The notes: generated by a model not told the origin, from the letters alone. Numbered from the stretch's first letter, positions 1,965 through 38,820 are shown. The stretch: 42,010 nucleotides of DNA from a virus (IMGVR_UViG_3300028800_000026:1-42010), one strand, 5' to 3'. Numbers and translations are program-made.

Positions 1965-2027
1965 CTTAATTCCTCTAATTGCTGTTTATCTTTTAATTAA
2001 CAAGTAGAGTTATTTATGGCAACAAAC

Positions 2028-2267
2028 TTAAACGGTATTTGTTTCACCGCCAGGAATTGGAATCGGACGCTCAATATGGATATCGATAATAGGCCCGGGC
2101 CACCCCAACACCATTTCTCTGTAAAGAGGGGTAGGATGCTTAGAATCATAAGAATACGCGGCCATCCCCAAAGCGACAGTGAAGCAAGATACTGCGAGAA
2201 GAAAAACCCAATAATTGAAACCGAAGGGGATGCTTTTATCGAAAAATTCTTTGACAGAAGACTTCAT
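2028..2267 (-). CDS. small membrane protein (one predicted TM segment)
   Basis: Hydrophobic stretch FNYWVFLLAVSCFTVALGMAAY. Lies downstream of the portal on the same strand. Confidence 0.5.
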   Translation of the reverse strand: MKSSVKEFFDKSIPFGFNYWVFLLAVSCFTVALGMAAYSYDSKHPTPLYREMVLGWPGPIIDIHIERPIPIPGGETNTV

Positions 2268-12492: not shown

Positions 12493-13137
12493 ATGGAGAA
12501 ACGGAATATTTATCAAAGAATTCTGGGAGTTATGAAAGATGTCACTTATATCCAAAAATCAGAAAAAAGAGTTGATAACCAATATCGATTCGTGAGCCAC
12601 GACCAAGTGGCCGCTGTCATTCATCCGGCCTTAGTAAACCACGGAATAGTTGCGGTCCCGACGGTTAAAAGCCTCACACAAGAAGAGTTCATGTCTAGTG
12701 TGAAGGCTCCAAATGGTTCCTTTTATGATAAAAAACAACAAAGGACCTCTGTCTGCTTAAATGTTAAGTTCGTAAATGTCGATGATCCTAACGATTTTAT
12801 TGATATCGATGCGTGGGGATATGGATTGGACTATTCAGATAAAGGACCAGGAAAGGCGGTATCCTACGCTTTTAAATATGCAATATTGAAAATATTCTGT
12901 TTGGAAACAGGAGATGACCCGGACCAAAACCAAGAAATGACTCTCAATGAATCTCAACAAAAAGAAATACAAACTGTCGTAGGAAACGATGACGCCCTCG
13001 CGGAAAGAGTCCTTAAGGGGTATGAGAGAAAGTACAGAAAGCCGGTTAGATCGTTTGCGGATATCAAGCAAGAAGACTTCGGGCCTGCGATTAGCAAGCT
13101 GAAAGAAACTCCAAGACCTATTGCGAGGAATGTATGA
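12493..13137 (+). CDS. erf: ERF-family single-strand annealing protein
   Basis: N-terminal IYQRILGVMKDVTYIQKSEK...YRFVSHDQV and YSDKGPGKAVSYAFKYAILKIFCLETGDDPD match the ERF pattern. Confidence 0.8.
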   Translation: MEKRNIYQRILGVMKDVTYIQKSEKRVDNQYRFVSHDQVAAVIHPALVNHGIVAVPTVKSLTQEEFMSSVKAPNGSFYDKKQQRTSVCLNVKFVNVDDPNDFIDIDAWGYGLDYSDKGPGKAVSYAFKYAILKIFCLETGDDPDQNQEMTLNESQQKEIQTVVGNDDALAERVLKGYERKYRKPVRSFADIKQEDFGPAISKLKETPRPIARNV

Positions 13138-13215
13138 GCTGGCAGACGTGGTATGATAATTTAAACCCATATGAACCCCCATATTATTTCCCAGAGTTCC
13201 AAGAGGAGGAAGAAA

Positions 13216-14058
13216 ATGAAGATAATTAATTTAGAACAAGGATCACCTGAATGGATTGAGTTTCGAAAAACAAAGATCGGAGCCTCGGACATCGGAATCC
13301 TTATGACTGGATCTCCTAAAGAAGTATCCGACCTCTACTGGGAGAAAAAAGGAGAAGAGAAATACGTAACAGCAGCCATGCGCCGAGGATCGGATATGGA
13401 AGCGGACGCAAGACGATGGTTTGAAAGAGAACATGATATCAAGGTTGAAAGGCCCGTGGGTGTGCATGATACCCACGAATGGTTGATGGCTTCGTTTGAC
13501 GGTCTTAATTTCGAATTGGGACTGTCCTTGGAGATTAAATGTCCTAACCAATTGCCCGACTTTATCGAGGATTTGAATAACTACAAGCGATATTACTGGC
13601 AAGTGCAGGCTCAGTTAGCCGTCGGAGGCCACGAAAAGGGGTTTATTTTGGCCTACAGTGAGTCAAAACAGGTAACAGGCATCATCTTTAGGGATGAGAC
13701 TGCGATCGCCGATTTAATAGCCAAAGGAAAGTGGTTTCATGATCTCCTCGAATCCAACCTCCCACCTCCAGAACCTCTCATATTTCGGGACGATGAGGAT
13801 GCGGTGGAATTTTCGGAGGCGGCGAGGACCTTAAAGGCGCAGATAGATAATCTTGAGGAACAGTGGAAGATCTTGCGAGATGGAGGCATTTATCTGGCTG
13901 GCGAGATCTCTTTCGAGTGTAACGGGGTGAAGGTCCAAAAGATCGTCCCTAAGCCGTCGATTGATTACAAAGCGGCTCTGGACGCTTTAGCCCCTGGCGC
14001 TGATTTGAGTTCATTTCTCAAACCTATCAAACCATCTTGGAGGTTAACAGTTTCCTAG
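13216..14058 (+). CDS. YqaJ/lambda-Exo-like recombination exonuclease
   Basis: QGSPEWIEFRKTKIGASDIG, FDGL...LEIKCP and YYWQVQAQL motifs. AGGAGG lies before ATG 13216. Paired with erf. Confidence 0.8.
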   Translation: MKIINLEQGSPEWIEFRKTKIGASDIGILMTGSPKEVSDLYWEKKGEEKYVTAAMRRGSDMEADARRWFEREHDIKVERPVGVHDTHEWLMASFDGLNFELGLSLEIKCPNQLPDFIEDLNNYKRYYWQVQAQLAVGGHEKGFILAYSESKQVTGIIFRDETAIADLIAKGKWFHDLLESNLPPPEPLIFRDDEDAVEFSEAARTLKAQIDNLEEQWKILRDGGIYLAGEISFECNGVKVQKIVPKPSIDYKAALDALAPGADLSSFLKPIKPSWRLTVS

Positions 14059-23002: not shown

Positions 23003-24355
23003 TTAATCGGGCCAATTTATTTCTTTATATTCTTCTGGAAGGTCCTCTTTAACTTTATTTTTTAAAATTTGTAATATTGCAGATGACCCTTTAATACTTT
23101 TGTTTTTTATCGCTACAGATATTTTACTATGGAGATTCTGCCATTTTGGATCTGTTAATAATTTCGCAGAAATTTTTCCTAGTGCTTTTTTACCTGCATA
23201 ACCAACAGCTATTTTTTCAGCTAAATCCAAATTTCCTGTAAATATAGAACCTAAAAAAGCAGTCGTAGCACCTGCGTCTATATATTCTTGTATTTTATTT
23301 ACTCCGAGAGCCTTTTGCACTCCTTTCATTTTGCTATATAGTGCATTGGTATCAGTTAGATCTTTAGCCAATTTCGGATATATAGAAGATAGGGTTTTAA
23401 ATATGGGTTTTTTAAGCGCTTCCAGAGTCTTTTTCCCACCTTTTACTGAATTCCAATTAACCATTTTATTAATTTCTCTGTAAAAATTAATTAGTTCCTC
23501 TGGAGAAGTACCAAAATTATTTGCCTTTTCTATTGCCTCGTCTATAAATTTTACGACCGACTTAGTTTCTGGAGAAGAACCCAACGTTTTTTTAAGCCCC
23601 ATACTAATGTCTTCGAATTTATCAATCAACTTGATGGTATCGTGAGCGTGTAGCTGAGGAAGTTTGGAGGCTTTATCGGTGATAACATCATAGACATTTC
23701 CCAAAGCGGCCTCCGTATTTTTTAACGCCGTATGCGCTTCTTTAGATTTCTTGGCTAATTTACCTAATAATTTTTCTGTAACATTCCCATGTAGGAGAGG
23801 CGCTATTTCTTTTTCAGATAGTCCTATTCGTTTACCAGTTTCATAAATTAATTTTTTATTACCCTTTCTAACAAACTTAGATTGTCCGCCGGGGACGGGA
23901 AGAACCAATGAAGTTAACAAGCTTAAGTTATCTTCCCATTCTTTTTCAGATTCATTCAGAGGAGCAGTTGAGGGAGCTAATTTCTCTATCCCTGACTGGA
24001 TTGATTTAGATGTGAGAGGGTTTTCTGTTATATGTTTGAGTTCTTCCTCCTCTTTTGGTTTTCCGCCTGGGACTTGTTTAGCAATCCAATTTAGGCCCTC
24101 CCCTATCCCAGAAACTACATCCCCAGGCAACCCGAGAGCGGTAGACGCAACAACTTTTCCAGTCCTTCCTAGAGTCCTTTTCATCTCCCCTACTTGAGAT
24201 TTATTGGCGACTTTTTTTCCCATTCCTAATTTGGGGAAATGGATGGATTTATTTTCAGGAACGGCCTTATCTTCCTCGAATTGAGACCAATCGAAAGATT
24301 TTTTTTCTCCCCCTGGCTCTTCCTCAAACTGAGACCAATCGAATTCGGATGTCAT
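23003..24355 (-). CDS. hypothetical virion protein (450 aa), compositionally chimeric
   Basis: Duplicated FDWSQFEE motif at the N-terminus. My 60-nt hand counts show G+C falling from about 48% at the 5' end to about 25% in the 3' two-thirds. Confidence 0.6.
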   Translation of the reverse strand: MTSEFDWSQFEEEPGGEKKSFDWSQFEEDKAVPENKSIHFPKLGMGKKVANKSQVGEMKRTLGRTGKVVASTALGLPGDVVSGIGEGLNWIAKQVPGGKPKEEEELKHITENPLTSKSIQSGIEKLAPSTAPLNESEKEWEDNLSLLTSLVLPVPGGQSKFVRKGNKKLIYETGKRIGLSEKEIAPLLHGNVTEKLLGKLAKKSKEAHTALKNTEAALGNVYDVITDKASKLPQLHAHDTIKLIDKFEDISMGLKKTLGSSPETKSVVKFIDEAIEKANNFGTSPEELINFYREINKMVNWNSVKGGKKTLEALKKPIFKTLSSIYPKLAKDLTDTNALYSKMKGVQKALGVNKIQEYIDAGATTAFLGSIFTGNLDLAEKIAVGYAGKKALGKISAKLLTDPKWQNLHSKISVAIKNKSIKGSSAILQILKNKVKEDLPEEYKEINWPD

Positions 24356-28519: not shown

Positions 28520-31500
28520 TTAACATAACAATTGAGATGGAGATACATCCAATATAAAAGAATGAAGTTCAATTTCAGAAAATTGATTACTAAAACTGGT
28601 GTCTCTCATCTGCTCCTCTGACAGGGTAAATCCGATCTGTACTGTATCTCCCAGCAAAGATGTATTCATCCGGTGCCATATTTGATTCTGTTGAGAAGCC
28701 GTGATCATCTGTAAGTTTATGTTCGCGGGAGTTAATCCCAGGTTCGTTGATTCAGGACATGTATAGAGAATAGCTGTGTAAACCAACGAATTATTTGAAT
28801 CAAACGGGTCGTTATAGGGAGAGGAAGCGTTCTGACTTAAATAGATAAGGAGGGTAATTTGCCCTCGAGCGGTTGTGGTGAAAAGATATTTTTGTGTCCC
28901 AATCCGGGTCTTTCTTCCCATTTCCCACGAGACCGGAAACTGTCTAGTCTGAATCATAGGGACGTACATTCGTTGGATAACTCCAAGTCCTAGATAGGTC
29001 CCTCCCGCAATAGGAGGAGAAAGAGTGAACGTATCTTGAGTGGGGTTGCTAACCGAAAAGATCTTCCCATTAACTTGAGCCCCTACCGTTCCTAGAGCCC
29101 CGCTGATGACGATATAATCTCCTTCATTCAAAGAATGGCCAGGGGATGTAACGAGAGAAAGTGCGCCAAAAGATTTTATATATTCCGAATTAGCTTCGTC
29201 CGTTCCATCTCCCAAGAACATAATGAAACCCTGAGAATTTCCTCCGATTACCTCGGGCTGTAGCAATGTAGATACGCCCGAGTCCCAAGGATCGTTCCAA
29301 GACTCCCAGGTTGGGTATATATCTCCAACCGTAGACCATGTTAATCCCGTCTGCCTTCTAAACGTCCCATAAGTCGTATAAGTCTCATTAAAGAGAGCCC
29401 AACTATTATTCCTGTAATTAAACAACAGGGTTTGATTAGGAAATGTTGCGATTGATTCGTTAGAACGGTAAGTAAAATAAATCCATTCGTTTATAAAATC
29501 CCTTTGCGCACACACTCTTTGCGACCCATTGCTCGTTAAGTTGAATTGAAAGATCTGGTCAGGAATAGGAAGATCGATCCTCTGGGATGCGGTTTGGCTC
29601 GTAATCACAATTCCTCTTCCTCCTACCGTGATCACTCCTCTATCTAATGTCACAGAACTAAAGGTGCTTTCCGAACCTAATTCAGTATTTATACTATAAA
29701 AATTGAATGGTATAATATCATTTCCTGAATAAATCAATCTAGTTTGTCTATTTTTAAATCCTACAATTAAAACATCTTCATTAAATCCGACAGTGGTGAT
29801 CGAACTTTGTATGCCCGCTTGGATGAACCCTCCGTATCCCGCTTCGTCTTCCCAAAATGCGCTAGGTTGAGCGGTTTGAGAGACAGGATTGGCAATTGAC
29901 CATCCAGGGGTCAATAAAGGGAGGTAAGTTTGAATGGGAGAGGGTGCTCCTGGCCACGAGGCGGTATAGTAAGGAACTCCATTTTGGCTATAGATGATCG
30001 TATCGGGAAGATAAACTTGACTCCCTGCGCTGGAAGTTTGAACTACGGGACCCAGGAATAAAATTCGATCCTTGTAGGGAACGATCATTCTGGCCCCTAC
30101 TAGATAATACTGTGAGGGGGGAAGATCGGAAATATTAAATATATTTGTAGGTCCAGAAATCAAGGGAGGACAGAAATTGACCCAACCATTTCCAGGAGTA
30201 GGCGTGTAAGGGGAAATGCCTATGGTCGGATCGCCATCATACCAACGCAGACAGTCTTTAGTTGCATCAGAATTATTCGTAAGGTACTGCAATATTCCAT
30301 TAGCATATGTTTGATTGGATATGGCAGCGTAGGGAAATCTCACCGTCAAAGTCGTGGTAGTCGTGTTATTAGAAACTGCCGATACAAAACCTGTTTGAAA
30401 ATTTACGGTATTACTATTTGTTCCAGTTACTTCATTTATGAAAACCCAGTCTCCAACAACCAAGCTTGCTACGGATTCAGTTATCGTAATTGTTAATTGC
30501 GTTGCGCTTACATAGGTAACAGAAGCGCACGGCTTGTACTGCATTCCTATATTGGTGGCGGAGAAAGGAGTTTGTATTCCATTTGTCACCCAGAAAGCTT
30601 GTTGGTAGTTAGTAGACCAAAATTGCTGATAATTTTGCCCATTCCACAGAGCCGGAGTCACCGTCGCCGGCGATTTTTGAGTATAAGTAATCGAAGTCCC
30701 CGCAAAAGTCCCGGTAGGAGGGTTTTTGTAAAAACTCACACTATAGGGCGTGTAAGGAACGGAAATAGGGACATTGTAAGAATAAACAGTATCGAATCCC
30801 AGAGTCCTCGTATCATCGGTGGTGTTCAGTTGAAGATCCTCTAGACCCATGACTGGAAGGGAAGGATAGTAGATAAATTGTTCCGTAATCGCCGTCGTCA
30901 ATAGAGGTGGAGAGGTTTGAAAAGTGACAGATCCTGTGGCATAGTTAATGGTCCCAGTTCCTCCCGCTCCATTGGATAAAACGCCAGTCCCATTGTCGGT
31001 GAAAACTTGCCCTCCGATGGTGATGCTGATGGAAGATGGAACGACCGATGCGTTTACTTGGTTCGTATTTTCCCATATTCCCCCTGACGTATAAACGCCG
31101 TAGAGAGTGGAATCTACACCAATCGTAAATGTATCTGCTCCAGTGACGGTTACTGTATAAGTAGCTCCATTGAGTTGAGTCATCCCTCCCACACCGGAAA
31201 TAAGAACATGATTCGTGGTTATGAGATTATGGGCGATGCTCGTGATAGAACATGGACTGGCATTCGTAGCCCCTGTTATATTTCCCTTTAATCCAATGGG
31301 AGAAAATACATTTCCTGAAAACGCCCCTGACCCGTCCGTCGTGCCTAAAGAAAGGGAAGAAACATTTCTTTGAAGTCTCCCGAGGGGCGAAGTTCCTCTC
31401 CGGCGCTTTATCCTTCCCCTCCATTGGTACGCATTAACTAGAGTAGGAAAAGAGTCATTATCTACGTTAAACGGGAGCACATCGTTTTTCAATCCTCCTG

Positions 31501-31531
31501 AAATCGGTCCCACAACGATTTTTTGGCTCAT
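28520..31531 (-). CDS. large virion/tail protein (1003 aa; nozzle or tubular-type role suspected)
   Basis: It is the largest ORF. The N-terminal pattern G..K.D..P....DSFP.L.NAY.WRGRI.RR.G resembles podovirus tail-hub proteins. It carries three copies of the beta-module described in the findings. Confidence 0.6.
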   Translation of the reverse strand: MSQKIVVGPISGGLKNDVLPFNVDNDSFPTLVNAYQWRGRIKRRRGTSPLGRLQRNVSSLSLGTTDGSGAFSGNVFSPIGLKGNITGATNASPCSITSIAHNLITTNHVLISGVGGMTQLNGATYTVTVTGADTFTIGVDSTLYGVYTSGGIWENTNQVNASVVPSSISITIGGQVFTDNGTGVLSNGAGGTGTINYATGSVTFQTSPPLLTTAITEQFIYYPSLPVMGLEDLQLNTTDDTRTLGFDTVYSYNVPISVPYTPYSVSFYKNPPTGTFAGTSITYTQKSPATVTPALWNGQNYQQFWSTNYQQAFWVTNGIQTPFSATNIGMQYKPCASVTYVSATQLTITITESVASLVVGDWVFINEVTGTNSNTVNFQTGFVSAVSNNTTTTTLTVRFPYAAISNQTYANGILQYLTNNSDATKDCLRWYDGDPTIGISPYTPTPGNGWVNFCPPLISGPTNIFNISDLPPSQYYLVGARMIVPYKDRILFLGPVVQTSSAGSQVYLPDTIIYSQNGVPYYTASWPGAPSPIQTYLPLLTPGWSIANPVSQTAQPSAFWEDEAGYGGFIQAGIQSSITTVGFNEDVLIVGFKNRQTRLIYSGNDIIPFNFYSINTELGSESTFSSVTLDRGVITVGGRGIVITSQTASQRIDLPIPDQIFQFNLTSNGSQRVCAQRDFINEWIYFTYRSNESIATFPNQTLLFNYRNNSWALFNETYTTYGTFRRQTGLTWSTVGDIYPTWESWNDPWDSGVSTLLQPEVIGGNSQGFIMFLGDGTDEANSEYIKSFGALSLVTSPGHSLNEGDYIVISGALGTVGAQVNGKIFSVSNPTQDTFTLSPPIAGGTYLGLGVIQRMYVPMIQTRQFPVSWEMGRKTRIGTQKYLFTTTARGQITLLIYLSQNASSPYNDPFDSNNSLVYTAILYTCPESTNLGLTPANINLQMITASQQNQIWHRMNTSLLGDTVQIGFTLSEEQMRDTSFSNQFSEIELHSFILDVSPSQLLC

Positions 31532-35153: not shown

Positions 35154-36293
35154 TTATGGAGAGCTAATATCATCGATAAAAGCTTCCCAGTATACAACGT
35201 CACTTGTACTTCCTGACAGATGTGAAGAAGTATCAGCAGAGGCTTGAAATACGGCATTACCCGACCCAATTATAAAACCCTGCCGTGTGTTATTAACGAA
35301 TGCACCTTGGATCGCAGGTCCATTAATCGTACTTACACCAGCCGAAAAGGTTGGGAAGACAGGACTTGGATACAATGCGCCACCGCTATACTGCACGCCG
35401 CCACTATTGATATCGCCTACGGCTAAAACTTGCGGGAACGAAAGCCCAGGAACACTAGCCACTGTTTGGTTAGTATTAAAGGCAGTCGCTGCGCTAGAAT
35501 TAGCGCTGCAAACGAATTGTGTATTGCTAGAGACCGAAGTCACATAGTAATAAACAGGCGAACCGGGAATTGAGTTGTTTGGAAGAGAATTGAGCTGAGT
35601 TGTCCCCCATGCGGCAGGAATTCTAAACGCAATCTCTTGACCTACAACAAAATTGTGATTCGTAGTAGTCGTTACAGTCGTTGTACTTCCAGTGGAAATA
35701 GCTTCAATGAAGTTTAGTCCTGGAAGATACAAAAAGGGGTAAAGCACTTTTTTAACGAATGCTCCCGCAGGAGAACCAGTTAAAGCAGTGTAATTGCTTC
35801 CACCGCCGGGCCATACGACCGAGAAGTGATCCGCATCCCCAACCGCACTAATGCGGAATGGCATACCAGAAATTTGAGGCATCCCAGTCGTCGCCGATTG
35901 GTATAATCCCTCAAACATCACTACATCCCCAACAGAATACCCGTGGGCAGTCACGTTAAAGACGATAGGATTGGCAGCGGTAGCACCGATGATCTGTTGC
36001 TGCGCACCAAATTGGAACATCAGCCCAGCACCAAACGTGCTAATACCATTGGAAGTAACAACAGCTGTAGTTAATACAGGTGTTCCGCCATTACAATAAT
36101 TGCAAATTGCAAATCCTTGCCCCATCGATACATCCCAGCTTGCGCTAGGGATCAAATGCTGGGTAAATGCCGCCGATGCGGTATAGTTATATAACTTCAC
36201 TCGAGTGGGTTGGAACGGCAGATAAATCGGCACGTTGTTCCCAGTAGCTGCAAGAGTATAGTTACCTTTCGCTGATCTTGAATATTCGCTCAT
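35154..36293 (-). CDS. virion protein with two beta-module copies, directly downstream of the capsid gene (decoration/head-fibre role suspected)
   Basis: Start at ATG 36293 (GGGAGG upstream, just after the MCP TAA). Module copies are ...ATAANPIVFNVTAHGYSVGDVVMFEGL... and ...STGSTTTVTTTTNHNFVVGQEIAFRIPAAWGTTQLN... Confidence 0.65.
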   Translation of the reverse strand: MSEYSRSAKGNYTLAATGNNVPIYLPFQPTRVKLYNYTASAAFTQHLIPSASWDVSMGQGFAICNYCNGGTPVLTTAVVTSNGISTFGAGLMFQFGAQQQIIGATAANPIVFNVTAHGYSVGDVVMFEGLYQSATTGMPQISGMPFRISAVGDADHFSVVWPGGGSNYTALTGSPAGAFVKKVLYPFLYLPGLNFIEAISTGSTTTVTTTTNHNFVVGQEIAFRIPAAWGTTQLNSLPNNSIPGSPVYYYVTSVSSNTQFVCSANSSAATAFNTNQTVASVPGLSFPQVLAVGDINSGGVQYSGGALYPSPVFPTFSAGVSTINGPAIQGAFVNNTRQGFIIGSGNAVFQASADTSSHLSGSTSDVVYWEAFIDDISSP

Positions 36294-36303
36294 GGTTCCT
36301 CCC

Positions 36304-36732
36304 TTATGCCGCAACAAAGTTACCGGCACGAGTCGAAAGCAAGTTTCGAATAGCCGTATCTTGAGTGAGCGCTTGGGCCTGTGCAAACTTCACAGCCAAG
36401 GTAGCATTTTGCGCAAGCATACCAGAATAATAAGGATCTCGATAAATTAGATTCATCGAATAGCCATCCTGGTTAATGTGCGTAATTGCTTGTTTTCCAA
36501 CAACCGTATTATAATAAACGTCTCTTCCGGAAGCCGATGACAATCTTGACACTGGCGCTTCAGAGCTCGTTAAAATACGGACGTTGTATACCGCGCCGTA
36601 CTCCGTTGGGAGTGCGTCGGTGTTGTGGCCATAATTCCATGTGGAAAGAAAGCCGCTACCTGTAAGCGAGTCGAAGTCAGGCTGAAGCTCAGTTGAACTC
36701 AGCATGAAATACGCCGAACGAACAGGACCTGT
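36304..36732 (-). CDS. MCP exon 4 (142 aa plus stop)
   Basis: TGPVRSAYFMLSSTELQPDFDSL...TEYGAVYNVRILTSSEAP...RDVYYNTVVGKQAITHI...LAVKFAQAQALTQDTAIRNLLSTRAGNFVAA. Confidence 0.85.
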   Translation of the reverse strand, partial: TGPVRSAYFMLSSTELQPDFDSLTGSGFLSTWNYGHNTDALPTEYGAVYNVRILTSSEAPVSRLSSASGRDVYYNTVVGKQAITHINQDGYSMNLIYRDPYYSGMLAQNATLAVKFAQAQALTQDTAIRNLLSTRAGNFVAA

Positions 36733-38820
36733 CAAATTCTATTACTTTTGTGACCTAGACTACAAACGTCTGGGCGGGGAAACCTCTTCGGATCTCCCTC
36801 TCATAGTTACCTATGAGTTTAGACTATCGCATCTCCGTTGCCATTCATCAAAATTAAGTGACGAATTAGCCCCATATTCTGGGATTGGAGTCTCAGGATT
36901 TAGTCGTTCAGGCTGATCTGTTTGTAAAAACGACATATCAAGTCCCTTCAGCCAACAACCACATTGCATGCAGTTTCCACCACATTTATAACAAATGCCG
37001 TCTGGCCCAGCTACTTCCATTATGTAATTCTTATCACACATCTCTTGCCCCTTGTTATCCTTCAGCCTATGCTGCAAGGAACTTCAAGTCAATTACCCAA
37101 GATTTTACTTCGGCACAAAGTTTACCGAATTTCAAACTACCTTCAATACCAGAAACGAATTTCTGAGCATTATTTGTATCAAGAGTTGCAGCCACAAGGC
37201 TAAAATCTGAGACGCCCAAATTTGTTGGGTTGTCTCCGTTTCCGCCACCGCCTGCATTGATTTCGGACGCTGCCGATACAATGTAGTCGCGGAGGATCAA
37301 ATCCTCTGCTTGGCGCATGGCTACAGCAAGACGCTCTGACACCCAGGCCAAAACACCTTCCTGATCTTGACATCATTGTTACTTAATGACTTAAGTCACT
37401 AGGTCTGGTCATTTCTGCCAGACTCTGCAATTTCATTTTATAGTTGCAGATCGGACTGTCGCATCACCTTTCGGCGTCCACTCACTCAGTCTCTCACGGT
37501 GACTTTCGTCTTCCGCCTTGTCACCCCATCGGGCTTCCAAGTCAATCAGAGCGGATTTTTAGCATTCAGTATAGCTGTAATATGCAGGATATGCTACAAT
37601 CCTTCACAAACATTCAACATAGGATTCATATGCATGATTTTTACGGAAAGGAGCTTTCTCAATATGAGGTTGGCTATCTTGCCGGGATTATGGACGGAGA
37701 AGGAACTATTCATATCTCCAGACCTATTTCTAGGGCTAAAGACTGTAAAAGTCCGATTTACCAAACTTATATAGCAGTCACCAATACTGACCAAGGCCTT
37801 CTTAATTGGCTTCAAGAAAGAATAGGAGGTATTATTCGATCCATCCCTATAGATAAAAAATCTGGAGTGGTTCGACGTCCCATTTGGAGATGGTATTGTC
37901 CTATTTGTCGTATCAAGAGTTTTTGCGAACTGCTTATTCCATATTCCGTTGTAAAAAGACGAGAGTTTGAGATTATGTATGAGATCAGAGGAACCTATCG
38001 CAATCAAGCAAAACCTGGAAAGCAAGGTGTCCAAAAAGTTCCTGATGAGGATATTTCTATTCGACATCGCTGTTACCTTGAACTTAAAGATCTTCATATA
38101 AGGCCAAATCTTCGTCATCCTAATCTACTACCTAAACGCGGTGAACCCACAAAATCCTAGGATCACCTGCTCGTTGATTCATTTTACGAGCACTTTATGC
38201 TGCACAATCTAAAATGCAGCCGGTTCCAAAAAACGCCATTTGCGCATCAATGATGTCGCGTTGTGGCACCTGTGCAGGAGGGTCAATCCCGCTATTTCCC
38301 AACTGTCTATCTGTTAACTACTTACGTTTAAGTAAGCCGAAAGCCTATTGCACTTTCGTCATTCAGTTTCCTGAATGTTCAGAGCACCGCATCTCTGATT
38401 TCCAGAGGCCAAAATCACATTTGCCTCCATATTCAGAGTCTTCTCGCTTGCTACGTTCAGGCTGACCATAGATTTCTAAAATTCTACCATTTTCATTCAT
38501 AATCCTTCTGGGAACTTCCAGGAGTATTTTTCTGAAATTATCTATTATTTTATCATCCACAGGCTTGCCCCTTCTTATCACCGTCTTTACGCTGCGACTT
38601 TGAAGTCTATCAGAGAAGATTTTACAACCACACATTTTATGGTTGGAGGAGTTAACGCCCTTGGACGCATAAAGCGGCAAGTCGTTCCCCCGTTCACTGG
38701 CATCGACACTTTGTCGCACACCAAAATATAGTTCATTGTGGGAGTCGGGGTATAAAGCATCGCAGGCGCGAGCGACTGCAATATCATTGGACCAAGGTTC
38801 CCAGTAGTAGTAATAGACAT
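36304..38820 (-). CDS. major capsid protein (HK97 fold), split gene: 4 exons and 3 group I introns. Spliced CDS is 954 nt = 317 aa.
   Basis: Exon translations match, in order, the pattern I recall for a common HK97-type capsid family (N4-gp56-type, assignment unverified): LL..A.P.LV...IP.N.GKTV.FRRY / L.EG.TP...V.A.V.QYG / D.VL.E...LLG.QA..TLD.I.RD...NA.KF...KFGT.P..AY / GE.G.LYGVRF..T.EA...DVY...V.G..A.G / ...AKIL. Confidence 0.85.
36733..37123 (-). mobile_element. group I intron C (391 nt)
   Basis: P1: exon TTCGGT (37124-37129) pairs with GCCGAA (37109-37114), with a U.G pair at the splice site. The last base is G (36733). GTAA-capped 7-bp hairpin at 36800-36817. The joined exons read ...SLKFG|TGPVRSAYF in frame. 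Confidence 0.8.
37124..37373 (-). CDS. MCP exon 3 (1 nt plus 83 codons)
   Basis: (I)CQDQEGVLAWVSERLAVAMRQAEDLILRDYI...TLDTNNAQKFVSGIEGSLKFG. The 5' boundary could instead be 37370. Confidence 0.8.
37374..38213 (-). mobile_element. group I intron B (840 nt) carrying an antisense LAGLIDADG gene
   Basis: P1: exon GCTGCAT (38214-38220) pairs with GTGCAGC (38199-38205), with a U.G pair at the splice site. The 3' end ...AAGTAACAATG resembles the ends of introns A and C. Homologous 7-bp hairpin at 37424-37450. Confidence 0.7.
37630..38160 (+). CDS. LAGLIDADG homing endonuclease, single-motif (homodimer-type), encoded antisense to its host intron
   Basis: YLAGIMDGEGTIHI lies about 15 aa after ATG 37630. 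About 176 aa, with no second LAGLIDADG motif. The track ORF extends to 37444; alternative ATG starts are at 37582 and 37591. Confidence 0.75.
   Translation: MHDFYGKELSQYEVGYLAGIMDGEGTIHISRPISRAKDCKSPIYQTYIAVTNTDQGLLNWLQERIGGIIRSIPIDKKSGVVRRPIWRWYCPICRIKSFCELLIPYSVVKRREFEIMYEIRGTYRNQAKPGKQGVQKVPDEDISIRHRCYLELKDLHIRPNLRHPNLLPKRGEPTKS
38214..38306 (-). CDS. MCP exon 2 (93-nt mini-exon: 1 nt + 30 codons + 2 nt)
   Basis: (I)QLGNSGIDPPAQVPQRDIIDAQMAFFGTGC(I) supplies the otherwise missing E-loop tip and return strand (compare L.EG.TP......V.A.V.QYG). It has no start codon, so it is absent from the ORF track. Confidence 0.7.
38307..38638 (-). mobile_element. group I intron A (332 nt)
   Basis: P1: exon CAACCAT (38639-38645) pairs with GTGGTTG (38625-38631), with a U.G pair at the splice site. 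GTAAAATCTT immediately follows, as in intron C. GAAA-capped 7-bp hairpin at 38360-38377. The last base is G (38307). Confidence 0.75.
38639..38820 (-). CDS. MCP exon 1 (60 codons + 2 nt)
   Basis: MSITTTGNLGPMILQSLAPAMLYTPTPTMNYILVCDKVSMPVNGGTTCRFMRPRALTPPT. AAAGGA lies 8 nt upstream of the ATG. Confidence 0.85.

What the first reader, a model, noticed from the sequence alone, without database searches (positions are those of the whole stretch)
36304..38820. Major capsid protein gene interrupted by three group I-type introns
The ORF track shows only three unconnected minus-strand fragments: 38587-38820, 37067-37351 and 36304-36735. Their N-terminal or in-frame parts match consecutive segments of an HK97-type capsid protein, and each is followed by junk sequence and a stop.

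Every break has the hallmarks of a group I intron:
- The upstream exon ends in T, which pairs as U.G with the first base of a perfectly complementary guide sequence 7-9 nt downstream. The pairs are CAACCAT/GTGGTTG, GCTGCAT/GTGCAGC and TTCGGT/GCCGAA.
- The last intron base is G.
- The joined exons are in frame and restore family-like sequence: ...RALTPPT-I-QLGNSGIDPP..., ...FFGTGC-I-CQDQEGVLAW... and ...SLKFG-TGPVRSAYF...

The exon lengths (182 + 93 + 250 + 429 = 954 nt) give a 317-aa protein of typical size. Intron-bearing phage genes are known, for example in T4, SPO1 and Twort. An essential capsid gene that needs three splicing events is unusual. Standard gene callers would mis-annotate it as pseudogene fragments.
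Basis: partly seen in the sequence, partly recalled or inferred. Interest (0 to 1): 0.9.

Follow-up and report, generated by a model that had tools for sequence, protein, structure and literature searches.

The report
Capsid gene with core-less mini-intron
A phage major capsid gene is broken by three real self-splicing (group I) introns plus a 34-base "mini-intron" that keeps only the guide sequences and no ribozyme, and it appears built to borrow the ribozyme of the intron next to it, which has not been described in nature.

Summary
The minus-strand gene 38820-36304 encodes an N4-gp56-family capsid protein. It has four interruptions, not three.

- Three are genuine group I introns: 38638-38307, 38158-37371 and 37123-36733. 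A covariance model built only from relatives hits exactly these three places. The P3-P8/P7 core shows strong covariation.
- Rfam finds nothing, but it also misses the textbook T4 td and nrdB introns.
That intron carries an antisense LAGLIDADG endonuclease gene.
- The corrected product is 323 aa and matches about 1000 uninterrupted homologues.

The 34-nt insert has no catalytic core. It keeps a U·G P1 helix, a P10 guide and a terminal G. About 40 related core-less elements (30-56 nt, or about 950 nt when they carry an endonuclease gene) occur at four sites in related phages. Each lies 21-102 nt upstream of a core-bearing intron. P1 and P10 covary. The tail pairs, with covariation, to the exon directly next to the neighbour's P1.

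Best reading: these are helper-dependent mini-introns. No transcript evidence exists.

The parts
38639..38820 (-). Exon 1 (182 nt; ATG at 38820)
   Evidence: Aligns with uninterrupted homologues up to ...PPT-I. It ends in U, at ...CCAACCAU.
38307..38638 (-). Intron 1 (332 nt), a group I intron. IGS GTGGTTG at 38631-38625; last base G.
   Evidence: Model R1 scores 83.8 bits, E 3.6e-17. The P1 has a U·G pair. The same site in L297 has CCUACCAU/GUGGUAG, a compensatory change. There is an insertion of about 100 nt in the P6 loop.
38214..38306 (-). Exon 2 (93 nt)
   Evidence: Aligns with homologues from QLGNSG to FFGTGC-I.
38180..38213 (-). Core-less 34-nt mini-intron (site M1). P10 guide GATT at 38209-38206; IGS GTGCAGC at 38205-38199; tail-helix strand TGCTCGT at 38192-38186; terminal G at 38180.
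   Evidence: It is absent from intronless homologues and contains an in-frame TAA. No R1 core is found in it. Twenty-two distinct versions sit at the identical site in other phages, all with U·G, P10 and a terminal G. Removing it exactly restores GCI-INEQVIL.
38159..38179 (-). 21-nt micro-exon AATCAACGAGCAGGTGATCCT, encoding (I)NEQVIL
   Evidence: DNA alignment to L001 and L002 shows only synonymous differences. Nt 1-4 pair with the mini-intron's P10 guide, nt 6-12 with its tail, and nt 13-21 with the IGS of the next intron.
37371..38158 (-). Intron 2b (788 nt), a group I intron. P10 guide ATTTTG at 38155-38150; IGS GGGTTCACC at 38148-38140; antisense endonuclease gene; catalytic core at 37576-37372; last base G at 37371.
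   Evidence: R1 scores 149.3 bits, E 1.9e-31, on the core. P1 is supported by compensatory changes in L376, which has the same site and architecture (GGUCAUAUU/GGUAUGACC). The join CT|T restores Leu and the homologue sequence.
37630..38160 (+). LAGLIDADG homing-endonuclease gene (176 aa) on the strand opposite to the capsid gene, lying between the intron's guide and its core. Its TAG stop spans the 5' splice site.
   Evidence: The YLAGIMDGEG motif is present. Hits: phrog_5046, E 5e-15; I-MsoI, PDB 3fd2, E 6.9e-5; Pfam PF00961, E 0.021, below cut-off. AGGA lies 7 nt before the ATG. The gene caller called a 176-aa product on the opposite strand at this place in the source contig.
37124..37370 (-). 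Exon 4 (247 nt)
   Evidence: Aligns with homologues from QDQEGVLAW to SLKFG.
36733..37123 (-). Intron 3 (391 nt), a group I intron. IGS GCCGAA at 37114-37109; last base G.
   Evidence: R1 scores 123.1 bits, E 9.7e-26. Introns occupy the same site in L366, L242 and L105. There are insertions in the P6 and P8 loops.
36304..36732 (-). Exon 5 (429 nt including the stop codon)
   Evidence: Aligns with homologues from TGPVRSAYF to the C-terminus.

Best explanation
**What it is.** The window holds the major capsid gene of a roughly 42-kb phage with a P22-type portal. Four intervening sequences split the gene into five exons.

**The three full introns.** Three of the interruptions are compact group I introns with no P2. 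They belong to a family that has colonised more than 20 sites in this capsid gene across related phages. Each presumably self-splices: P1 with a U·G pair sets the 5' site, P10 and a terminal G set the 3' site, and the P3-P9 core does the catalysis. The middle intron also carries an I-MsoI-like LAGLIDADG homing endonuclease gene on the opposite strand.

**The fourth element.** This is a 34-nt guide-only mini-intron. It keeps three things:
- an internal guide that pairs with the end of exon 2 (P1, with U·G) and the start of the micro-exon (P10);
- a terminal G;
- a tail that pairs with the micro-exon directly next to the P1 helix of the following intron.

It has no catalytic core.

**Proposed mechanism.** The tail helix parks the mini-intron's P1/P10 substrate helix beside the neighbour's P1. 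The neighbour's ribozyme core then docks it and carries out the same two transesterifications on it. The excised neighbour might also do this in trans.

**Shown versus inferred.**
- Shown: the anatomy, the conservation and covariation of all helices, the absence of a core, the strict linkage to a downstream core, and the need for exact removal to restore the reading frame.
- Inferred: that removal happens at the RNA level, and that the neighbour's core is the catalyst.
For: **Gene and corrected junctions**
- About 1000 uninterrupted homologues of 322-325 aa share 83-89% identity.
- The protein and DNA alignments fix the junctions.
- TIGR04387 is met.

**Group I cores**
- RNAalifold plus a hand-placed P7, on 16 compact introns from relatives, give 98.3% of cells paired.
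- 23 of 29 pairs have compensatory changes, and 0 of 500 shuffles reach this. Slid controls pair at about 40%.
- Model R1 hits exactly three loci in the window and 70 in relatives.

**The mini-intron family**
- There are 22 distinct M1 versions, 13 M2, 3 M3 and 1 M4.
- All begin after a U paired as U·G, and all end in G.
- P10 covaries with synonymous exon positions: GUGUU/AACAC, GUAUU/AAUAC, GUACU/AGUAC and ACUGG/CCAGU versus ACCGG/CCGGU.
- P1 covaries: CUUCGGU/GCCGAAG versus UUUCGGU/GCCGAAA.
- No core is found inside them, including the 950-nt endonuclease-bearing versions.

**Exact excision is required**
- Removing every insertion restores ORFs of 316-329 aa in genes carrying two to six insertions.
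- dN is about 0.13 while dS is saturated, so these genes are under purifying selection.

**Linkage to a helper**
- Every mini-intron with enough downstream sequence has a core-bearing intron 21-102 nt downstream.
- In an unbiased sample of 26 B1 introns (the intron at ...GAGGAT|), 24 have a core-less element upstream.

**The tail helix**
- The best tail-exon duplex lands about 18 nt upstream of the helper's 5' splice site, whatever the distance to the mini-intron.
- It tracks four different Arg codons in the exon.
- Cognate pairs average -13.96 kcal/mol. Non-cognate pairs average -11.32 ± 0.38 (0 of 2000 permutations reach the cognate value). Shuffled tails average -5.99.
- 85.5% of cells pair, against 27-46% when the partner is slid.
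- In the window, the unconstrained MFE fold gives three adjacent helices: mini-intron P1, tail helix and intron 2b P1.

**Biochemical plausibility**
- A group I core works with its IGS supplied in trans (PMC2709566).
- Engineered group I 'spliceozymes' remove introns in trans in E. coli (PMC4094466).
Against: - There is no transcript or biochemical evidence. The spliced protein of this gene and of 10 relatives is absent from the 15-billion-protein collection.
- Rfam gives no Intron_gpI hit at any threshold. Model R1 does not cross-hit the T4 td or nrdB introns. The family is therefore tied to group I by architecture, not by sequence homology to a proven ribozyme.
- No natural case of a group I core splicing a separate core-less intron was found in the held literature.
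- The tail helix could serve another purpose, such as ordering splicing or stabilising the neighbour's P1.
- The linkage could partly reflect co-conversion during homing rather than catalytic dependence.
- Two B1 introns (L370, L375) have no mini-intron, so the helper does not need one.
- The terminal G sits at the far end of the tail helix from the junction, so the geometry of the second step has not been modelled.
Confidence: 0.6

Rival explanations
1. There are three group I introns, and the middle one runs from 38213 to 37374 using the GCTGCAT/GTGCAGC P1. The product is 317 aa and the micro-exon is skipped.
For: Both a valid P1 (the mini-intron's) and a valid 3' end exist, so this exon-skipping product is chemically possible as a by-product.
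Against: - It deletes INEQVIL, which is at least 90% invariant in homologues.
- The 21-nt micro-exon keeps that coding with only synonymous changes.
- Relatives have the same mini-intron followed by 84-91-nt exons that cannot be skipped.
- Intron 2b has its own covarying P1 and P10.
- The 3' splice site is 3 nt off the frame needed for Leu.
Confidence: 0.03
2. The 34 nt stay in the mRNA and the ribosome hops over them. This would be translational bypassing, as in T4 gene 60.
For: - The gap is short and non-coding, with a hairpin at its 5' edge and an in-frame stop.
- At M1, a take-off on AUU and a landing on AUC is conceivable.
- In T4, a homing endonuclease gene (mobA) has inserted into gene 60 (PMC2988022). 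That gene 60 also carries the 50-nt bypass gap is from my own knowledge.
Against: - No stop or rare codon follows the putative take-off codon.
- The M1 hop would delete one of two conserved Ile residues, and two versions have take-off AUA against landing AUC.
- At M2, M3 and M4, no matching take-off and landing pair restores the frame or the conserved residues. This follows from sequence reasoning.
- Bypassing explains neither the invariant U·G and terminal G nor the covariation of P10 and the tail helix.
Confidence: 0.05
3. The mini-introns are removed at the RNA level, but not by a group I core. One possibility is a nuclease plus an RNA ligase that uses the P1/P10 guide as a splint holding the two exon ends in a nicked duplex. 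Another is an unknown small ribozyme activity.
For: The guide lines the two exon ends up as a continuous duplex, which is the substrate type of nick-sealing RNA ligases (own knowledge). No experiment ties excision to the neighbour's core.
Against: - The U·G pair at the 5' site and the terminal G are group I hallmarks with no role in protein-mediated cutting.
- The tail helix docks specifically next to a group I P1.
- No RNA ligase domain appears among the ten largest ORFs of the window. Only ten were scanned.
- Thirty nucleotides are too few for two cleavage ribozymes.
Confidence: 0.12
4. The mini-intron is a dead scar, from a deletion remnant or an assembly artefact. The capsid gene would then be non-functional, or rescued by a co-infecting phage.
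For: The tail motifs resemble the 5' (UGAUU..UUGG) and 3' (..CAUAAAAG) ends of full introns, which fits an origin by internal deletion.
Against: - About 40 distinct versions come from independent samples and assemblers.
- Flanking exons are under strong purifying selection with saturated dS.
- Three helices of the element itself covary.
- The contig is 42,024 nt, near the 38-43 kb of most related contigs.
Confidence: 0.03

Closest known systems
Phage genes with several group I introns, and capsid-gene introns. Examples: Staphylococcus phage Twort orf142 with three introns (own knowledge) and Cluster J mycobacteriophage capsid and tail introns (PMC3706429).
   Same: A phage structural gene is split by self-splicing introns. 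P1 has a U·G pair, the last base is G, and homing endonucleases are associated. Gene callers fragment the gene.
   Different: The family here is compact, with no P2 and cores of about 200 nt. Neither Rfam nor T4 cross-search recognises it. It occupies more than 20 sites in one 970-nt gene, with up to six insertions per gene. It coexists with core-less derivatives.
Engineered trans-acting group I systems: spliceozymes (PMC4094466), trans-excision-splicing ribozymes (PMC2532722) and the Azoarcus core with its IGS supplied in trans (PMC2709566).
   Same: A group I core removes an internal segment from an RNA that has no core of its own. The P1 and P10 helices define both splice sites.
   Different: - Those systems are man-made, and most put the guide in the ribozyme.
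- Here the guide lies inside the excised segment.
- The substrate is tethered in cis by a tail helix stacked on the helper's own P1.
- The arrangement is natural and evolutionarily maintained.
- Catalysis here is inferred, not shown.
Degenerate organellar introns that depend on trans factors (group III and degenerate group II introns), and the group II to spliceosome analogy (own knowledge; PMC4424553 is a review).
   Same: An intron lineage sheds its catalytic parts and relies on catalysis supplied from elsewhere. Only the splice-site recognition elements remain.
   Different: Those cases are group II chemistry with protein or snRNA helpers. This would be the group I counterpart, in a phage, with the helper a neighbouring intron in the same transcript.
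T4 gene 60: the 50-nt translational bypass (own knowledge), with the mobA homing endonuclease gene inserted in gene 60 (PMC2988022).
   Same: A short untranslatable insert sits in an essential phage gene, next to a homing endonuclease gene.
   Different: The defining bypass features were tested here and not met: matched take-off and landing codons, and a stop codon right after take-off. Group I splice-site features are present instead.
Group I introns with antisense homing endonuclease genes in nuclear rDNA of protists and fungi (PMC9548176).
   Same: The endonuclease gene is encoded on the strand opposite to the intron and its host gene.
   Different: - Those are His-Cys box genes in eukaryotic rDNA introns.
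- Here LAGLIDADG genes sit in phage mRNA introns.
- The arrangement recurs at two positions: the P6 loop in B1/B0 introns, and between the guide and the core in intron 2b and L376.

Membership tests
Group I intron (introns 1, 2b and 3) | The 5' splice site follows a U that forms a U·G pair in P1 with an internal guide sequence. | tested here: met
   All three have it. P1 covaries with the exon in relatives at the same sites: window versus L297 for intron 1, and window versus L376 for intron 2b.
Group I intron (introns 1, 2b and 3) | A terminal G, and a P10 pairing between the guide and the 3' exon. | tested here: met
   The last bases are G. The family 3' end is GTAACAG-NNN-G. P10 covaries at the B1 site: UUAAUU/GAUUAA, UAAUC/GAUUA and UUAUC/GAUAA.
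Group I intron (introns 1, 2b and 3) | A conserved core in the order P3-P4-P5-P6-P7-P3'-P8-P7', with the P3/P7 pseudoknot. | tested here: met
   98.3% paired, 23 of 29 pairs compensatory, and all six helices supported. One search aligns all three window introns to the full model.
Group I intron (introns 1, 2b and 3) | A match to the curated Rfam model (Intron_gpI). | tested here: inconclusive
   No hit at gathering score or at E<=10, even on stretches of 226-241 nt. The positive control also fails: there is no hit on the annotated T4 td and nrdB introns.
Group I intron (introns 1, 2b and 3) | Guanosine-initiated self-splicing. | not testable with these tools
   This needs in vitro transcription with GTP and Mg2+, or RT-PCR.
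Group I intron (the 34-nt element 38213-38180) | P1 with U·G, P10, and a terminal G. | tested here: met
   GCUGCAU/GUGCAGC, AAUC/GAUU, and G at 38180. The same holds in 22 distinct M1 versions.
Group I intron (the 34-nt element 38213-38180) | A catalytic core (P3-P9). | tested here: not met
   Only 34 nt, of which 11 are guide. R1 finds nothing there. It is therefore not a group I intron in the strict sense. It works like the substrate half of one.
LAGLIDADG homing endonuclease (I-CreI/I-MsoI type, single motif) | The LAGLIDADG motif, and sequence similarity across the domain. | tested here: met
   YLAGIMDGEG is present. I-MsoI (3fd2) gives E 6.9e-5 over residues 9-114, and 3ko2 gives E 0.0035 over residues 9-142. 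phrog_5046 gives E 5e-15. Pfam PF00961 scores 16.1 bits, below its 23.1 cut-off. Cleavage activity was not tested.
N4-gp56 family major capsid protein (TIGR04387) | A score above the curated cut-off over the full length. | tested here: met
   84.8 bits against a cut-off of 60, covering residues 20-306 of the corrected 323-aa product. phrog_1357, major head protein, gives E 2.9e-14.
Programmed translational bypass (T4 gene 60 type) | Matched take-off and landing codons that restore the frame, with a stop codon right after take-off. | tested here: not met
   Sense codons follow the candidate take-off codon in all M1 versions. At M2-M4 no matching pair restores the conserved protein (sequences).

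The most novel reading that the evidence does not exclude
The 30-56-nt inserts, and their roughly 950-nt endonuclease-carrying forms, are natural 'guide-only' group I introns. They have lost, or never had, a ribozyme. A neighbouring intron's core splices them after a dedicated tail helix docks them onto that intron's P1. This would make them a satellite or helper system among self-splicing introns. It would also be a group I parallel to the split between catalytic RNA and minimal introns that is thought to have produced the spliceosome.
Probability: 0.55. Interest if true: 0.9.

Novelty: new variant of a known kind. Interest (0 to 1): 0.8.

Why it matters
**If the mechanism holds.** Group I ribozymes would be shown to act in nature on introns that are not their own. 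So far this has only been engineered.
- A selfish RNA could shed about 85% of its length and still be removed.
- The smallest functional intron-like element in bacteria or phages would shrink to about 30 nt.
- The system is small and testable: one transcript, about 1 kb, and pure RNA. It could be used to study how catalytic and substrate functions of introns become separated.

**Practical consequences, whatever the mechanism.**
- An abundant phage group of roughly 40-kb environmental genomes has its marker capsid gene routinely fragmented by gene callers. One 90%-identity cluster holds 153 truncated N-terminal fragments.
- Rfam-based screens miss the whole intron family.
- The guide-plus-tail design might also serve as a compact tag for ribozyme-mediated RNA excision.

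Tried and rejected
- **Rfam searches.** Gathering score on the whole window; E<=10 on 2.8 kb, on three related loci and on two single introns. Nothing was found. The T4 td/nrdB control showed that this negative is uninformative.
- **R1 against the T4 td/nrdB region, filters off.** Only noise, so there is no sequence-level link to classic IA2 introns.
- **blastn of intron 3 against GenBank phages.** Only a 60-nt match to two unannotated Desulfovibrio phage records.
- **tblastn of the capsid against GenBank phages.** One hit at 32% identity, so no cultured close relative exists.
- **Over-loose DNA patterns.** A few useful loci were rescued by tblastn.
- **Search for M1 elements with a long L1 loop or an endonuclease gene.** None was found.
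- **Exact look-up of spliced proteins as a proxy for transcript contigs.** None is in the collection.
- **Early idea that ATTAAGTAACAATGATG before exon 4 is a decayed exon copy.** Rejected: it is the family's normal 3' end, GTAACAG-NNN-G.
- **Idea that GAATGC next to the intron 2b core is a working guide for the mini-intron's 5' site.** Rejected: it is not conserved in L376.
- **Generic scan of the window for further mini-introns.** Only the known one stands out. Two other hits are at chance level.
- **Other negatives.** The promoter and terminator scan found nothing above chance. PDB search with the capsid sequence gave no meaningful hit. One Pfam call failed on wrong coordinates.


Full report
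**1. Checking the observation**

A search of 5.8 billion protein clusters with that product found 989 hits. The listed top 120 are uninterrupted, 316-325 aa long and 82-89% identical. Several are named N4-gp56 family major capsid protein.

In the protein alignment, the first and third joins (PPT-I-QLG and KFG-TGPV) are exact. The second is not.

A DNA alignment with two intronless genes (L001, L002) shows where the missing residues lie. They are encoded in the window as AATCAACGAGCAGGTGATCCT, only 34 nt after exon 2, and differ from the homologues only at synonymous positions.

The corrected structure is:
- exons 38820-38639, 38306-38214, 38179-38159, 37370-37124 and 36732-36304;
- 972 nt in total, giving 323 aa.

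The corrected protein passes TIGR04387 capsid_maj_N4 at 84.8 bits against a cut-off of 60.

**2. The three large insertions are group I introns**

Rfam gave nothing at any threshold. It also gave nothing for the annotated T4 td and nrdB group IA introns. The negative result therefore carries no weight.

Related capsid genes from IMG/VR and metagenomes turned out to be full of insertions. They occupy more than 20 sites, with up to six per gene.

I aligned sixteen compact insertions of 201-274 nt, none of them from the window. RNAalifold recovered P3, P4, P5, P6 and P8. Adding P7 by hand gives the group I order P3-P4-P5-P6-P7-P3'-P8-P7', with the P3/P7 pseudoknot. The counts are:
- 98.3% of cells paired;
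- compensatory changes in 23 of 29 pairs;
- 0 of 500 shuffles as good;
- about 40% pairing when the partners are slid.

A covariance model of this alignment (R1) hits the window at exactly three places, all on the minus strand:

| Position | Score |
|---|---|
| 37372-37576 | 149 bits |
| 36735-37123 | 123 bits |
| 38307-38640 | 84 bits |

Each intron follows a U that pairs as U·G with a guide, and each ends in G. P1 and P10 covary with the exons in relatives at the same sites. R1 does not hit the T4 introns. This is therefore a distinct, compact family without P2.

**3. The middle region**

The large middle intron runs from 38158 to 37371.
- Its P1 is GGUGAUCCU/GGGUUCACC.
- Its P10 is CAAGAU/AUUUUG.
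- The join CT|T restores Leu.
- L376 has the same intron type at the same site, with GGUCAUAUU/GGUAUGACC, which means three compensated positions.

Between the guide and the core lies a 176-aa ORF on the opposite strand, 37630-38160. It has a LAGLIDADG motif and resembles I-MsoI at E 6.9e-5. Its stop codon spans the 5' splice site. Antisense LAGLIDADG genes also sit in the P6 loop of the B1 and B0 introns of relatives.

**4. The 34-nt insert**

The element 38213-38180 has an in-frame TAA and shifts the frame. It is far too short for a core, and R1 finds nothing in it. It does have:
- a U·G P1 (GCUGCAU/GUGCAGC);
- a 4-bp P10 (AAUC/GAUU) immediately 5' of the guide;
- a terminal G.

It is not a one-off. 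Pattern scans of IMG/VR and JGI/ENA metagenomes found the following:

| Site | Exon context | Distinct versions | Size |
|---|---|---|---|
| M1 | same site as the window | 22 | 32-46 nt |
| M2 | GAGGGU\|GUN | 13 | 30-56 nt, 325 nt, or 950-975 nt |
| M3 | UUCGGU\|ACYGG | 3 | |
| M4 | CUUGGCU\|GUAG | 1 | |

The 950-975-nt M2 forms carry a sense-strand double-LAGLIDADG gene in the P1 loop.

All begin after a U·G pair and end in G. P10 covaries with synonymous exon positions: GUGUU/AACAC, GUAUU/AAUAC, GUACU/AGUAC and ACUGG/CCAGU versus ACCGG/CCGGU. P1 covaries at M3. None contains an R1 core.

Removing all insertions, mini-introns included, restores ORFs of 316-329 aa. Between such genes dN is about 0.13 while dS is saturated. 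They are therefore functional genes, and exact removal of the mini-introns is needed.

**5. Link to the neighbouring intron**

Every mini-intron with enough downstream sequence has a core-bearing intron 21-102 nt downstream. A sample chosen only by the P1 of the B1 intron gave 26 contigs. Of these, 24 have a core-less element upstream.

The tails of the mini-introns pair with the exon. The best duplex lands about 18 nt upstream of the helper's 5' splice site, directly beside the helper's P1. This holds whether the mini-intron is 21, 24, 54, 91 or 102 nt away.

The helix tracks four different Arg codons in the exon:
- CGC pairs with UUGGCG;
- CGU pairs with UUGACG;
- AGA pairs with UUGUCU;
- CGG pairs with UGCUGC.

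The statistics support it:
- Cognate pairs average -13.96 kcal/mol.
- Non-cognate pairs average -11.32 ± 0.38, and 0 of 2000 permutations reach the cognate value.
- Shuffled tails average -5.99.
- On an alignment, 85.5% of cells pair, against 27-46% for slid partners. One position shows GC, AU and UA pairs.

In the window, the tail UGCUCGU (38192-38186) pairs with ACGAGCA (38174-38168) and abuts intron 2b's P1 strand (38167-38159). The unconstrained MFE fold of 38225-38135 is exactly three adjacent helices: mini-intron P1, tail helix and intron 2b P1. All but one of the 21 micro-exon nucleotides are therefore paired to one of three guides.

**6. Mechanism**

The best-supported reading is that the mini-intron is a guide-only derivative of a group I intron. 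Its tail motifs resemble the 5' and 3' ends of full-length family members.

The proposal is that the neighbouring intron's core splices it, with the tail helix acting as a tether that places its P1/P10 helix next to the helper's P1. The chemistry is plausible:
- A group I core can use a guide supplied in trans (PMC2709566).
- Engineered group I ribozymes excise introns in trans in E. coli (PMC4094466, PMC2532722).

No natural example turned up in the held literature.

Translational bypassing is disfavoured. No stop follows a take-off codon, and no codon pair restores the conserved protein at M2-M4. Bypassing also explains none of the covariation. A protein-based cut-and-ligate route cannot be excluded.

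No transcript evidence could be obtained.

**7. Context**

The window is nearly the whole 42,024-nt MEGAHIT contig k141_3757001 of ENA ERZ27245399. It has a P22-type portal, a large terminase, a helicase and a tail-fibre gene. No cultured relative exists in GenBank phages.

**8. Verdict**

The capsid gene is interrupted by group I introns, as claimed. The middle junction was misread, however, and it hides the more unusual feature: a core-less mini-intron structurally coupled to its neighbour.

Multi-intron phage genes are a known kind. The helper-dependent guide-only intron would be a new variant, and it is inferred from comparative evidence only.

Noticed in passing
L247, L297, L309, L365, L376 and others (capsid genes of related phages): This capsid gene family is an intron hot spot. 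At least 20 distinct insertion sites are used, from aa 28 to aa 271, with up to six insertions in one 970-nt gene and micro-exons as short as 16 nt (L376). The region aa 84-122 is the most crowded.
   Followed up: partly
L338 1292-2241; L347 about 12872-13846; L377; L381; L350 2274-2598: At site M2 there are core-less elements of 950-975 nt. They carry an intact sense-strand double-motif LAGLIDADG gene in the P1 loop but have no ribozyme core. A size series runs 975, 325, 56, 49, 44, 33 and 30 nt, which suggests endonuclease loss and shrinkage.
   Followed up: partly
window 38158-38160 and 38140-38155: The TAG stop of the antisense endonuclease ORF spans the 5' splice site of intron 2b, with two of its bases in the micro-exon. 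The last codons of the ORF overlap the intron's P10/P1 guide on the other strand.
   Followed up: no
window 36811-37077 (-) and 38363-38719 (-): Small ORFs occupy the P6-loop insertions of introns 3 and 1. One is an 88-aa Cys-rich product and the other is 118 aa. Both run into the conserved core sequence CAGCCTGAACG, read as QPER. Similar small ORFs sit in the same loop in L217 and L227. None has a family match.
   Followed up: partly
L242 7136-7345 and 7423-7619; L365 2572-2773: Strong R1 hits (164-175 bits) lie outside the capsid gene in relatives. In L242, two lie 77 nt apart. The intron family therefore also lives in other genes of these phages.
   Followed up: no
L383 (T4 AF158101 134000-146000): The Rfam gathering search reports no Intron_gpI hit for the annotated T4 td and nrdB group IA introns. 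Rfam-based screens can therefore miss phage group I introns altogether.
   Followed up: yes
window 37562-37567 (-), next to the intron 2b core: GAATGC sits where family members have their guide, directly before TAAAAATCC. It is complementary to GCATTT at the mini-intron's 5' edge. It is not conserved in L376, so it is probably a relic or chance.
   Followed up: partly
L149, L182, L238, L252 (M1 mini-introns upstream of B0 introns): In B0-linked mini-introns, the first four tail bases (AGCU) can also pair with the last bases of the B0 5' exon (GGCU). That would compete with the helper's own P1. The tail also resembles a shortened copy of the B0 P1 hairpin.
   Followed up: no
window 28520-31531 (-): A 1003-aa protein has a ubiquitin-E1 FCCH domain match (PF16190, E 5e-16). 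In L001, the protein encoded just downstream of the capsid gene has a weak hit to the same domain. The window's own downstream protein (35154-36293) gave only a weak major-tail-protein hit (phrog_584, E 4.5e-4).
   Followed up: no
window 23087-23125 (-) and 2001-2036 (-): There is a weak R1 local hit (E 0.22) that joins the 5' and 3' ends of the model. There is also one generic mini-intron-like pattern match. The first lies inside a continuous ORF, and both are at chance level.
   Followed up: yes
protein cluster of the exon-1 ORF: The 77-aa exon-1 ORF belongs to a 90%-identity cluster of 153 truncated capsid N-terminal fragments, 58-113 aa among the members listed, from JGI, ENA, Logan and NCBI. 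Interrupted capsid genes of this kind are therefore widespread and systematically mis-annotated.
   Followed up: partly
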